A stretch of DNA of 45,436 nucleotides, taken from a virus (taxonomy: Duplodnaviria > Heunggongvirae > Uroviricota > Caudoviricetes). Position 1 is the stretch's first letter. Each line of letters starts with the position of its first letter. Positions 18,001-21,000 of this stretch are shown piece by piece. A program made the position numbers. The stretch lies in IMG/VR virus record IMGVR_UViG_641736226_000030; one strand, written 5' to 3'.

Positions 18001-21000
18001 CTGGTGAAATAATCTTTTCCGTTGCCAGTGCTGTATTACCGTTTACATCAACAGATACCAGACCGTTTGTCCCGGCATACAGTACGAATCCCTCCATCGC
18101 CACCATGCTTCTTCGGCTCAGGCATGCCTGCATGGAAGGAATTCTGGAGCCAGAAATTGTGGAAGGCGATACACCACTGAACAGATAAGGCTCCCCCTTT
18201 GTCGCCACCACCAGTGACGTTCCCAGCGGACAGATAGCCACAATATCTTCTGCCGTCGTGTGACGATTCACTTCCGGCCATGCATACGGCAGATACGCTT
18301 CCGAAAACATCACTTCATTACCGGCAAACCCGGCAGCAATACCATTAGCCATCAGGCAAAGACCCGTCATATTCTCCGGTGGCGGCAGGTAATCCCATGT
18401 TGCCAGGGAAGGCCCAAGGTTTTTCGTCGGTATTTTGTCCGTGTAACTGAGCACTGACGCATCCAGTTCAGCCACAAGTAAAAAATCCGCTTCTCCTCCA
18501 CCTGATGCAGAGCGATAAATCCGGCGACGTTTAATATTGGCATTCTGCAATGGCACCGGAGCCAGCGTCAGTTGTACCGCAGTCCCCGGAGTACGGAGTG
18601 TTACCTCCAGAGACGCCGGACCAGGCGGACCTTCTTCACCATAATCTGAGACAAAGGTTTCAGTATAAAACCGGGTTTCGTCATCATTCGGGTTATCGTC
18701 AGAAACATCACCGCCCTGCTGAACAGTACAGACAGGAGCTGTCGTCGGCGCGGGGATCCCCAGACGATACGATGATGTCGGGTGATTCCCGTCCCCTTTT
18801 GTGGCAATAGTCGCATCCGTCACTTTAGGAAAACGCCCGTCAGTGTAGTAAATACGCCCGTGGGGGTCCTGAGCGATCGGACTGCGGATCACATCCACCA
18901 CATCCGGCCATGCAAACCAGAAATCGTCACGGTAATGAAAAATTGTTTTTGGCTTAATTGTGAATGTTTTCTCAACCCCGGATATCTGACGTTCTGGTGT
19001 AATAACACCAAACCGGAAATGGCAGTCCTCCGCCAGTACAGCGGAATGCTCGGGCAGCATGGATGTCACAACGCGCGGCATCATCCCACGCATCGTGGTG
19101 ATATCGATATAGGGCATAGAAATTCCTTTGACTGCTTCAGGCTTAAAAATCAGGGGATTTATGATGGAATTCGCTAAAATCGCGATCGGCATCACTGAAA
19201 CAAAATGCCTTGCATGACATTCTGATGATGACTAAATAACTTCATTGATTATTGCAATTTTCTTTCGGTTTGGGGGAGCATATTGCTCCCCTTTTTTCAC
19301 TGCATTATCATTGCCGCTGTAGCAACGAGAAGCATCACTCCGCACACGCAAGATGTTTCACACTCACACCATACAGTCCATTTTTCGCCATTCCCGTATA
19401 CAGAAAGCTATTCACTGTCTTCGTGTGAATTCCCATTTCACTGGCAAGGCGACATCATGTACCCCTTTCAATTTTTCCAGATTCAGCTGAATAAAACGGC
19501 GTCCCTGATACATACTGCGCATTAAATGGCCCAACTGACTATCACAGATTATTAACCAGGATTCTTTACTATCCAGAATAATCCTGCGATTTTCCGGCAT
19601 AAAAAACTCTTGAACCAGAATTACACGGCATCCTTCACTCCATCGTATTAACATGTTTATTACTTCACTCTCTAATAACCCCCCCCTATACATGACAACA
19701 AAAACCGGAGCCGGGCTCCGGTTTTTGTGAAGCTGTCGGCTATTTCATCCCGCCAATATTTTCCCACGTCCCGTCAGCACGCAGGATTTGCAGCGGTCTT
19801 ACCACACACTGTATCTGCTTTTTATCTGCATCCAGTATCACCACCTGTGTGATTACCCTGTCCTGCTCCGGAATAATGCCATTCTCATCTGACTCCAGAA
19901 TGTCTGCCGGTCCCAGTCGCAGTTGTGCTGTAAGCGACTGCCCGTTTTCACAGTCATCATGCTTTCCGCAACCGCACAGACTCTGCATAAGCTTTCTCAA
20001 AATATTCATGTCATTCTCCTGTTCTGCCTGTATCACTGCCCACTTCATCCAGCCCCTTGACATCCTGCCACGGCCCGTCACCAAACCTGACCTGCAAATG
20101 CTGAAAAAAACCCTGAACCCGTGTGGCATCTTTGGGGTCAAGAAAGGTCAGTCCGGTGATGAGTGCGCCATCTGTATCCGGGAACCAGCCATGGCTGTTT
20201 GTCTCAATAATGTTTCCCGGCCCCAGACGGAACCGTATTTGCGTCTCCCCCGGGTCGCCCTTCGGCCCCTGAGGTCCGGTCGCCCCCACCGGGCCTGCCG
20301 CACCTGTTTCTCCTTTCGGTCCCTGTGGGCCTGCCGGGCCTGCCGCACCGGTATCTCCCTTTGGACCCTGTGGACCTGCATTTCCCGTCAGACCGGTCTC
20401 TCCCCGCTCTCCCCTGTCACCTTTCGGCCCCTGCGGGCCTGCCGGACCAGCATCACCTGCCGGTCCCCGTTCGCCGGTTGCCCCGACAGGGCCGGTGTCA
20501 CCGCGCTCTCCCTTATCACCCTTCGGCCCAGCCGGACCTGCTGGCCCCGTGTCCCCTTTATCTCCTTTCGGACCGGGAACACCACCTCCTGCTGCAGCCT
20601 CTTCTGCCTTTGTTTTCGCTTCATTTGCCACATCCATTGCCGCTTTCACCGCTTTCGGGGTGGCAGCCTTCGTTTCATCATCACTGTCCGTTGCGCTGCT
20701 TAACTGCACAATTCCCTTCTGTGCCGTCGTTGCATCAGCCACATTTGCAGCGCTGCCTGCCGGACCTGGCTCTCCACGAGGTCCCTGAGGTCCGGTCTCT
20801 CCTCGTTCGCCTCTCGGACCTGCAGGACCAGGTTCACCTCGGGGGCCAGTCTCCCCACGCTCACCTCGTGCTCCCATCGGTCCCTGTGGTCCGGCTTCTC
20901 CTCGTTCGCCTTTAGGACCTTGCGGGCCTGCAGGACCTCCCGGATCACCTTTCTCGCCTTTTGGCCCCATATCCCCCTGGTCCCCTTTAGGCCCCCGCTC

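What the first reader, a model, noticed from the sequence alone, without database searches (positions are those of the whole stretch)
19740..20300. Tail-fiber C-terminal domain duplicated as a separate small gene
The last roughly 60 residues of the collagen-repeat fiber (...IRFRLGPGNIIETNSHGWFPDTDGALITGLTFLDPKDATRVQGFFQHLQVRFGDGPWQDV) resemble the 89-aa protein encoded 1 nt downstream (...AQLRLGPADILESDENGIIPEQDRVITQVVILDADKKQIQCVVRPLQILRADGTWENI). This may be a receptor-binding tip cassette kept for exchange, or a chaperone derived from the fiber tip. The small protein also has a CGCGKHDDC cysteine cluster.
Basis: seen in the sequence. Interest (0 to 1): 0.45.

Follow-up and report, generated by a model that had tools for sequence, protein, structure and literature searches.

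The report
Tail-fibre knob duplicated as small gene
The side tail fibre of this Shiga-toxin phage is followed by a small gene that encodes a second, old copy of the fibre's own end knob; the pairing is real, conserved and already published, but what the small protein does is still untested.

Summary
The window is a 933W/Sp5/phi24B-type short-tailed Stx prophage. The last part of the 645-aa collagen-like lateral fibre (20011..21948, minus strand) and the 89-aa protein that starts 1 nt after its stop (19740..20009, minus strand) both carry Pfam PF06820 (Phage_fiber_C, "PfC"), each at E about 1e-35.

This is already known. Database records annotate it, and Mondal et al. 2016 describe Sp5 ORF68 as an 89-aa, non-essential fibre-C-terminus protein and suggest it is a "reservoir" sequence.

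- The two copies are old paralogues: 34% amino-acid and 54% nucleotide identity, with a longest identical run of 7 nt.
- Small-type and fibre-type knobs form separate clades (300/300 bootstraps). Both are kept as an adjacent pair in Salmonella prophages whose fibre has no collagen.
- The small gene is nearly always intact next to the fibre (74 of 76 loci), has its own ribosome-binding site, and is under strong purifying selection (pN/pS 0.05).
- Its peptides occur at trace level in purified phi24B virions.

These results argue against a silent exchange cassette. They fit a translated accessory protein in the position that tfa holds in lambda. The cysteine cluster is not conserved. Interest is modest.

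The parts
20011..21948 (-). Lateral (side) tail fibre gene, 645 aa plus stop. It corresponds to 933W L0121, Sp5 ORF67, phi24B gp61 and the EPclB architecture. Domain order: N-terminal fibre domain, coiled coil, collagen, Phage_fiber_2 repeat, collagen, PfC knob.
   Evidence: ORF list. The 19600..22000 stretch that contains the gene is 100% identical at nucleotide level to Stx phages. Pfam hits Collagen, Phage_fiber_2, Phage_fiber_C and phage_tail_N. Immuno-EM and the deletion phenotype in Sp5. Six lateral trimers per virion in the phi24B cryo-EM study.
20047..20238 (-). Fibre-type PfC domain (residues 571-634), the C-terminal knob of the fibre.
   Evidence: PF06820 at E = 4.9e-35, model positions 1-64 of 64. 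PfC of the related EPclA fibre is a trimerisation domain that re-nucleates the collagen helix (Ghosh 2012). pN/pS 0.24, with the variable residues clustered.
20014..20046 (-). C-terminal tail of 11 residues after the knob (EVGSDTGRTGE). The small protein has no counterpart. The last codons contain the small gene's ribosome-binding site.
   Evidence: Sequence and alignment.
20016..20019 (-). Shine-Dalgarno GGAG, with 6 nt between it and the small gene's ATG. It lies inside the fibre's last codons. The junction reads ...GGAGAA TGA C ATG.
   Evidence: Sequence. GGAG is kept in 77 of the 78 junctions read across related loci. Salmonella homologues have AGGAGG before their ATG.
19740..20009 (-). 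Small PfC-only gene, 89 aa plus stop. It corresponds to 933W L0122 and Sp5 ORF68, and is labelled 'gp59' in the phi24B proteome file.
   Evidence: ORF. PHROG 576 matches 1-89 of 89. 100% identical cluster P0001. Intact in 79 of 80 and 74 of 76 related loci. pN/pS 0.145 overall. Peptides ADGTWENIGGMK and VITQVVILDADKK in virion preparations.
19929..20009 (-). N-terminal 27 residues of the small protein: a predicted short amphipathic helix (residues 3-12), then the variable Cys/Gly/His-rich linker (LCGCGKHDDCENGQSLT).
   Evidence: AF2 model has helix H3-12. This is the most variable part, pN/pS 0.27. Cys positions are not conserved.
19743..19928 (-). Small-type PfC domain (residues 28-89).
   Evidence: PF06820 at E = 5.1e-36. 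pN/pS 0.054. Forms a clade separate from fibre-type PfC.
19698..19728 (.). Perfect 15-nt inverted repeat flanked by A and T runs: a terminator-like hairpin just after the small gene. It marks the downstream end of the mosaic module shared with lambdoid prophages.
   Evidence: the repeat finder pair I1. RNA fold -24.8 kcal/mol, z = -5.8. Homology with the lambdoid EPclA loci ends at 19696 (L005) or 19682 (L011). The simple terminator scan did not call it.
19696..20559 (-). Mosaic module (second collagen stretch, PfC, small gene, hairpin), 95% identical to the same module in long-tailed lambdoid prophages (gene order J, lom, EPclA fibre, small gene).
   Evidence: blastn of the window against L005 and L011. 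Gene order in L005-L011.
19904..19917 (.). One copy of a 14-nt direct repeat, the other copy being at 20457-20470 (13 of 14 identical, 11 of them contiguous). It links the small gene's RLGPAD codons to an ERGPAG collagen codon run, at the same junction as in the rare chimera P0063.
   Evidence: the repeat finder family D5. P0063 sequence and locus L092.

Best explanation
The small gene encodes a real, separately translated 89-aa protein: a short N-terminal helix followed by an old paralogue of the fibre's own C-terminal knob (PfC).

Shown here:
- It starts at its own ATG behind its own Shine-Dalgarno sequence, 1 nt after the fibre's stop. This arrangement would allow its translation to be coupled to that of the fibre.
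- It travels with PfC-ended side fibres as a fixed two-gene module, in long-tailed and short-tailed E. coli prophages and in Salmonella prophages.
- It is under strong purifying selection.
- Its peptides are detectable, at far lower counts than the fibre's, in purified virions.

Inferred:
- Like the fibre's PfC, it forms a homotrimeric knob, here on a very short stalk.
- It acts on or with the fibre's knob as an accessory factor. It may help the three fibre chains register and fold, or sit loosely on the distal knob as a cap. This would be the role that Tfa-type proteins play for lambda Stf and Mu S, the gene position it occupies.
- The role is dispensable for growth on E. coli K-12 in the laboratory.
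For: - Paralogy.
- Correct 89-aa start and own ribosome-binding site.
- Obligate linkage: 79 of 80 loci found through the small gene have it intact, always with the TGA-N-ATG junction behind a fibre-type PfC. 74 of 76 loci found through the fibre knob have an intact small gene.
- The same pair follows J and lom in lambdoid prophages, where lambda has stf-tfa, and no Tfa-family Pfam hit appears among the neighbouring genes.
- Deep conservation: in Salmonella prophages a collagen-free 468-aa fibre (phage_tail_N + Phage_fiber_2 + PfC) is followed by an overlapping 79-aa small PfC gene. Small-type and fibre-type knobs are separate clades, 300/300.
- Selection: small PfC pN/pS 0.054, against 0.24 for the fibre PfC.
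- Translation: two unique peptides in the phi24B virion proteome file, listed at 3 PSMs each, against 2267 PSMs for the fibre.
- PfC is an autonomous trimerisation domain (Ghosh 2012).
- Fold searches with the AF2 model give the Mu fibre S (the entry solved with its chaperone) as the single best PDB match, and tail fibres as all the top viral matches.
Against: - Sp5 ORF68 is classed as non-essential, while the fibre ORF67 is essential. The protein is therefore not needed to make a working fibre under laboratory conditions.
- Recombinant EPclA and its PfC fragment trimerise without the small protein.
- The small protein has no similarity to Tfa proteins; Pfam finds only PF06820.
- No interaction with the fibre has been shown or could be modelled here. 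The monomer model is confident in only one of five models.
- The trace level in virions could be simple carry-over.
- The E. coli loci are closely related, so their linkage counts are not independent events.
Confidence: 0.45

Rival explanations
1. Reserve cassette. The small gene is kept as a spare knob that recombination can move onto the fibre to change its tip. 2016.
For: Both genes have the same orientation and both carry the RLGP motif. Rare natural chimeras exist: P0063 has collagen fused in frame to the small-type knob, at an 11-nt microhomology, and P0134 has the small N-terminus fused to a fibre-type knob. Mondal et al. raise the idea.
Against: Nucleotide identity is 54% with a longest identical run of 7 nt. 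There are no inverted repeats. Small-type and fibre-type knobs are never mixed across E. coli, Citrobacter and Salmonella, 300/300. None of the 120 listed clusters matching the small protein is longer than 131 aa, so none is a full fibre carrying a small-type knob. Purifying selection on the small knob is strong, and the gene keeps its start codon and ribosome-binding site. The protein is translated. P0063 lies at a contig edge and lacks the RLG strand. P0055 is an out-of-frame fusion.
Confidence: 0.1
2. Frameshift isoform. A fraction of ribosomes shift +1 at ...GAA UGA C AUG..., producing a minor 735-aa fibre with two knobs in tandem. The phi24B authors tested this idea as 'Fusion_6159_FS1/2'.
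For: The small gene is in the +1 frame relative to the fibre in both E. coli and Salmonella. UGA followed by C is a weak stop, and a Shine-Dalgarno-like GGAG lies just upstream, as at the prfB shift site (established knowledge). The phi24B proteome file lists a fusion entry annotated 'Spike or just gp59?'. A distant protein, P0141, has four PfC-like domains in tandem, so stacked knobs are structurally possible.
Against: Mondal et al. found no frameshift signal. The P-site codon GAA cannot re-pair well with AAU (inference from codon-anticodon rules). The E. coli and Salmonella junctions share no slippery sequence, but both keep an ATG with a well-spaced Shine-Dalgarno sequence. No junction peptide was reported. 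The only gel slice in which the fusion entry exceeds gp61 is a low-molecular-weight slice (EA1829, 25 against 24), which hints at a free small protein.
Confidence: 0.07
3. Free soluble knob with a role off the virion. The trimer, released at lysis or acting inside the cell, binds the fibre's ligand or the fibre tips. This could mask receptors on debris, keep fibre tips from sticking before release, or change adsorption of progeny.
For: The protein is far below fibre level in purified virions. It is dispensable for infectivity. The small knob is nearly invariant while the fibre knob varies at clustered positions, which suggests a conserved partner. In phi24B the fibre tips point back towards the capsid and their ligand is unknown.
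Against: There is no signal peptide or lipobox; by inspection the N-terminus is a short charged helix. At 34% identity to the fibre knob, shared ligand specificity is doubtful. There is no experimental hint of adsorption control.
Confidence: 0.15
4. Decaying duplicate with no function.
For: It is non-essential in Sp5. Many truncated or fused copies exist in E. coli genomes.
Against: pN/pS is 0.054 on the knob. The gene is intact in 79 of 80 and 74 of 76 loci. The pair is conserved in Salmonella. The ribosome-binding site is kept. Peptides are detected. Truncated copies are expected in decaying prophages.
Confidence: 0.03

Closest known systems
933W L0122, Sp5 ORF68 and the phi24B 'hypothetical tail fiber protein' (labelled 'gp59' in the 2026 proteome file)
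   Same: It is the same gene. The 19600..22000 stretch is 100% identical at nucleotide level to many Stx phages, and protein cluster P0001 is 100% identical. Published descriptions: an 89-aa, non-essential protein with a fibre C-terminus domain, and a phi24B GenBank note mentioning the RLGP motif.
   Different: Nothing differs at sequence level. Many records annotate a 129-aa form that overlaps the fibre; that form is not supported here.
PfC (Phage_fiber_C, PF06820) domain of the EPclA/EPclB collagen-like prophage fibres (Ghosh et al. 2012)
   Same: Same domain family. In EPclA it is a beta-rich C-terminal knob that trimerises on its own and re-nucleates the collagen triple helix.
   Different: In the small protein the domain is not attached to a fibre shaft; only a helix of about 10 residues precedes it. 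It belongs to a separate, more conserved subclade. Its own oligomeric state has not been measured.
Tail fibre assembly proteins after the fibre gene (lambda Stf-Tfa, Mu S-U, P2 H-G)
   Same: Same genomic position, immediately after a side-fibre gene with the phage_tail_N and Phage_fiber_2 architecture. The best solved-structure match of the PfC model is the Mu fibre S, in the entry solved with its chaperone.
   Different: No sequence similarity to Tfa proteins. The small protein is a paralogue of the fibre's own tip rather than an unrelated chaperone, is much smaller (89 aa), and is not essential.
Alternative fibre-tip systems (invertible Mu G or P1 C segments; diversity-generating retroelements)
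   Same: A second copy of a fibre C-terminal module lies next to the fibre gene.
   Different: No inverted crossover repeats. No near-identical template and variable repeat pair: identity is 54%. Both copies lie in the same orientation, and the second copy has its own start codon and is translated.
C-terminal trimerisation nuclei of fibrous proteins (T4 fibritin foldon, collagen NC1 domains)
   Same: By the data of Ghosh et al., PfC works the same way: a small C-terminal domain that brings three chains into register.
   Different: No sequence or fold match was found here. I know of no free-standing paralogue encoded next to those proteins (from my own knowledge, not tested here).

Membership tests
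Pfam PF06820 Phage_fiber_C (PfC) | Match to the family HMM above the gathering score (25 bits) over the full model | tested here: met
   Small protein: 123.3 bits, residues 28-89, model 1-64 of 64. Fibre: 120.1 bits, residues 571-634.
Pfam PF06820 Phage_fiber_C (PfC) | Forms a trimeric, beta-rich knob | not testable with these tools
   Shown experimentally only for the EPclA PfC. The AF2 monomer model is all-beta after helix 3-12, but only one of five models is confident.
PHROG 576 (small 'tail fiber protein') | Full-length match to the 89-position profile | tested here: met
   E = 8.8e-61, residues 1-89 on profile 1-89 of 89.
Tfa-type tail fibre assembly chaperones (lambda Tfa, Mu U) | Sequence membership in the Tfa family | tested here: not met
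   The Pfam scan returns only PF06820. NCBIfam returns nothing.
Tfa-type tail fibre assembly chaperones (lambda Tfa, Mu U) | Gene immediately downstream of the side-fibre gene | tested here: met
   1-nt gap in E. coli. Overlap of 14 nt (L093) or 23 nt (L094) in Salmonella. Gene order J, lom, fibre, small gene.
Tfa-type tail fibre assembly chaperones (lambda Tfa, Mu U) | Required for folding of the fibre tip, or binds the tip | not testable with these tools
   Indirect evidence argues against an essential requirement: ORF68 is non-essential while the fibre ORF67 is essential, and EPclA trimerises alone.
Invertible or shufflon-type alternative fibre tips | Inverted crossover repeats that flank alternative C-terminal cassettes | tested here: not met
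   The only inverted repeat in 19300-22100 is the terminator hairpin. Both genes lie on the same strand. A nearby recombinase was not searched for.
Programmed +1 frameshift sites (prfB type) | Slippery P-site codon that re-pairs in the +1 frame, weak stop, closely spaced upstream Shine-Dalgarno sequence, conserved across homologues | tested here: inconclusive
   UGA-C and an upstream GGAG are present. GAA to AAU re-pairing is poor (inference), and the Salmonella junction is unrelated. No junction peptide is reported in the part of the proteome file that could be read.

The most novel reading that the evidence does not exclude
The small PfC protein defines an undescribed class of tail-fibre accessory protein. 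It would be a free copy of the fibre's own trimerisation knob that has replaced the Tfa-type chaperone in one lineage of Stf-like side fibres. It would dock end-on to the fibre knob, as a template during folding or as a loosely held distal cap, and so tune fibre assembly or the still unknown ligand binding of the lateral fibres of Stx phages.
Probability: 0.3. Interest if true: 0.55.

Novelty: already known. Interest (0 to 1): 0.3.

Why it matters
The lateral fibres of short-tailed Stx phages are conserved and were long assumed to bind BamA. The 2026 phi24B cryo-EM preprint questions that and lists their function as an open problem. A conserved, selected partner protein encoded with every such fibre is a concrete handle on that problem. 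Knowing whether it binds the knob, caps it or competes with it could explain how these fibres fold and what they recognise. That in turn bears on how Shiga-toxin genes spread between E. coli strains.

As a scan finding, however, it repeats what Pfam annotation and Mondal et al. 2016 already state. The main practical corrections are three: the 129-aa database annotation is wrong, the cysteine cluster is not conserved, and the 'spare cassette' idea fits the data poorly.

Tried and rejected
- The first AF2 run, with an 8-sequence alignment, gave pLDDT 49 and was not used.
- Sequence searches of the PDB with the small protein and with a 17-sequence profile found nothing meaningful.
- The consensus terminator scan missed the hairpin after the small gene. 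It was confirmed by folding and by the repeat finder.
- A lipoprotein or signal-peptide reading of MNILRKLMQSLCGC was considered and rejected by inspection. The hydrophobic stretch is only about 5 residues and is interrupted by Gln and Ser or Arg, and the Cys positions are not conserved.
- Metal binding or a disulfide knot formed by the Cys cluster was considered and set aside for the same lack of conservation.
- Co-variation between fibre-knob and small-protein variants was not attempted, because the two genes are adjacent and tightly linked.
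Full report
**What is there.** The window is a short-tailed Shiga-toxin prophage of the 933W/Sp5/phi24B type, read on its reverse strand. Window 19600-22000 is 100% identical to many such phages. The 645-aa ORF at 20011..21948 (minus strand) is the collagen-like tail fibre, known as 933W L0121, Sp5 ORF67, phi24B gp61 and the EPclB architecture. An 89-aa ORF at 19740..20009 (minus strand) starts 1 nt after the fibre's TGA. The junction reads ...GGAGAA TGA C ATG, so a GGAG lies with 6 nt between it and the ATG.

**Check of the observation.** BLASTP of the fibre's last 100 residues against the small protein gives 34% identity over 62 residues, E = 5e-13. The alignment score is 18.7 standard deviations above 2000 shuffles. 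Both proteins match Pfam PF06820 (Phage_fiber_C, 'PfC') over the complete 64-position model, each at E about 1e-35.

**The start codon.** Many GenBank records annotate a 129-aa form that overlaps the fibre gene. Four results favour the 89-aa form:
- PHROG 576 has exactly 89 positions and matches residues 1-89.
- The 40-codon extension has pN/pS 1.8 in that frame, whereas the same DNA read in the fibre frame has 0.13.
- Salmonella homologues have a stop two codons before the homologous ATG.
- Mondal et al. also give 89 aa.

**What was already known.** The phi24B GenBank record notes a 'phage fiber C superfamily ... RLGP motif' for this ORF. Mondal et al. 2016 (PMC5155283) deleted the Sp5 late genes one by one. 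ORF67 (the fibre) is essential and sits at the tail ends by immuno-EM. [quoted passage not shown] Ghosh et al. 2012 (PMC3368898) showed for the related EPclA fibre that PfC is a beta-rich knob of about 7 nm. It trimerises on its own and lets the collagen helix refold quickly.

A 2026 preprint on phi24B (doi 10.64898/2026.04.10.717836) shows six lateral gp61 trimers whose distal knob points towards the capsid and is not resolved. It doubts that this knob binds BamA and lists the function of these fibres as an open question.

**Expression.** The proteome supplement of that preprint lists two peptides unique to the small protein, ADGTWENIGGMK and VITQVVILDADKK. The file labels the protein 'gp59' and lists each peptide at 3 PSMs. 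The fibre has 2267 PSMs in total. The authors added hypothetical fibre-small fusion entries ('Fusion_6159_FS1/2', annotated 'Spike or just gp59?'). The protein is therefore made, but in purified virions it is far below fibre level. The only gel slice where the fusion entry exceeds gp61 is a low-molecular-weight slice (EA1829, 25 against 24), which hints at a free small protein. The table does not allow more than a hint. The stored file was truncated, so further peptides may exist.

**Linkage.** Starting from the small gene, all 80 IMG/VR loci have the TGA-N-ATG junction, and 79 have an intact gene. Where enough upstream sequence is present, all but two encode an intact fibre-type PfC. Starting from the fibre knob, 74 of 76 loci with enough downstream sequence have an intact small gene, and two are frameshifted.

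The same pair follows J and lom in long-tailed lambdoid prophages of E. coli O157, where the fibre is the 437-aa EPclA. This is the position that stf-tfa holds in lambda, and no Tfa-family Pfam hit appears among the neighbours. The DNA shared between those loci and this window is an 865-bp module: second collagen stretch, PfC, small gene and a strong hairpin at 19698-19728. These E. coli cases are therefore recent exchanges of one module, not independent conservation.

**Deep conservation.** An exhaustive profile search of 1.84 billion representative proteins finds only 90 clusters with PfC, most of them fragments. The family is small and essentially enterobacterial.

Among the hits is a 79-aa Salmonella protein, P0128, about 58% identical to the small protein. 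In Salmonella lambdoid prophages it overlaps the end of a 468-aa fibre that has phage_tail_N, Phage_fiber_2 and PfC but no collagen. In a second locus it follows a 212-aa PfC-ended protein.

In a neighbour-joining tree of PfC domains, the small-type knobs of E. coli, Citrobacter and Salmonella form one clade and the fibre-type knobs of E. coli and Salmonella another. The split is recovered in 300 of 300 bootstraps. The duplication is therefore old, and the two copies have been inherited together and kept distinct.

**Selection.** Across the E. coli loci, pN/pS is as follows:

| Segment | pN/pS |
|---|---|
| Small protein, PfC part | 0.054 |
| Small protein, N-terminal 27 residues | 0.27 |
| Fibre PfC | 0.24 |

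Fibre-knob variation is clustered at a few positions (RLGP-GN/AS/MR/MS, H/N/Y/Q585, D/G590, D/A603, R/Q609, F/L/M/V613). The small knob is almost invariant.

The third Cys is often Arg or Ser in E. coli. Salmonella variants carry two, one or no Cys there.

**Test of the cassette idea.**
- The two PfC-coding segments are 54% identical at nucleotide level, with no identical run longer than 7 nt, so homologous recombination has no substrate.
- The only inverted repeat in the region is the hairpin. Both genes have the same orientation.
- None of the 120 listed clusters matching the small protein is longer than 131 aa, so none is a full fibre carrying a small-type knob.
- Chimeras do occur. P0063 has collagen fused in frame to the small-type knob at an 11-nt microhomology that is also present in this window (19904-19917 and 20457-20470). 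P0134 has the small N-terminus fused to a fibre-type knob. P0055 is an out-of-frame fusion. They are rare. P0063 sits at a contig edge and lacks the RLG strand. Most look like prophage decay.

Together with the selection and translation data, this makes a silent spare part unlikely.

**Test of the frameshift idea.** The small gene is in the +1 frame in both E. coli and Salmonella, and UGA-C with an upstream GGAG recalls the prfB shift site. However, GAA would have to re-pair with AAU. The two junctions share no slippery sequence, while both keep an ATG with a well-spaced Shine-Dalgarno sequence. Mondal et al. saw no signal. I rate this low but not excluded. It is directly testable by looking for a junction peptide.

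This fits a fibre-domain fold and adds nothing on the small protein's role. A distant 565-aa protein, P0141, has four PfC-like domains in tandem before a collagen stretch, so such knobs can stack along a fibre axis.

**Most likely mechanism.** The small gene encodes a separately initiated protein. The 1-nt junction would allow its translation to be coupled to the fibre's. By homology with PfC it should form a trimeric knob on a very short stalk.

Several facts point to an accessory role on or with the fibre's own knob, either as a helper for chain registration and folding or as a loosely held distal cap:
- fixed adjacency to PfC-ended side fibres;
- the tfa-like gene position;
- strong purifying selection;
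- near-invariance beside a more variable fibre knob;
- a trace presence in virions.

Its dispensability on K-12 and the self-assembly of recombinant EPclA mean it is not an essential chaperone. I give this reading 0.45. The rivals are a free soluble knob acting off the virion (0.15), the exchange cassette (0.10), a frameshift isoform (0.07) and a functionless relic (0.03).

**Verdict.** The feature is real and the paralogy is significant, but it is already annotated and published. The function remains open and is experimentally tractable.

Noticed in passing
window 16387-17696: A 1310-bp IS3-family element with a 3-bp target duplication (the transposase ORF is 16764..17654) is inserted about 200 nt before the 3' end of the gene matching phi24B vb_24B_39, the ORF that lies between the needle gene and the fibre module and so appears to be the nozzle gene (phi24B gp57). 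The nearby Sp5 tail genes are essential, so this prophage may be unable to build tails. Phages PA28 and 06-3462 also have an IS in this region.
   Followed up: partly
window 19415-19693 (minus strand): The next ORF downstream is 93 aa as listed; PHROG 2014 matches residues 14-93 and no function is known. By position it should be Sp5 ORF69. [quoted passage not shown] 2016.
   Followed up: no
window 19698-19728: A perfect 15-nt inverted repeat flanked by A and T runs forms a two-way terminator-like hairpin (-24.8 kcal/mol). It lies exactly at the end of the module shared with lambdoid prophages. The simple terminator scan did not call it.
   Followed up: yes
window 19740-20129 and 20148-21578: Public records annotate a 129-aa overlapping form of the small gene. 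They also annotate many antisense or out-of-frame ORFs inside the GC-rich collagen-coding repeats (for example ORFs b7-b10 and B15-B17 in AP005153). These look like annotation artefacts.
   Followed up: partly
L007 6001-6570: One E. coli lambdoid prophage carries two identical small PfC genes in tandem after the fibre. The junction DNA contains an N, so this may be an assembly artefact.
   Followed up: no
P0141 (565 aa, source unknown): A distant protein has four tandem PfC-like domains, then a collagen stretch and another C-terminal domain. It is the only sign of the PfC fold outside enterobacterial prophages in the 1.84-billion-protein search.
   Followed up: partly
window 21945-22595 (minus strand): The gene upstream of the fibre matches Pfam SU10_adaptor (E = 1.4e-31). 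This agrees with the phi24B cryo-EM assignment of gp62 as the tail adaptor to which the fibre's N-terminal domains bind.
   Followed up: no
L093 110-748; L094 6617-8023: Salmonella prophages attach the fibre-type PfC knob to quite different upstream parts: a 212-aa protein in one locus, and a 468-aa collagen-free Stf-like fibre in another. The knob plus small gene therefore behaves as a portable end module.
   Followed up: partly
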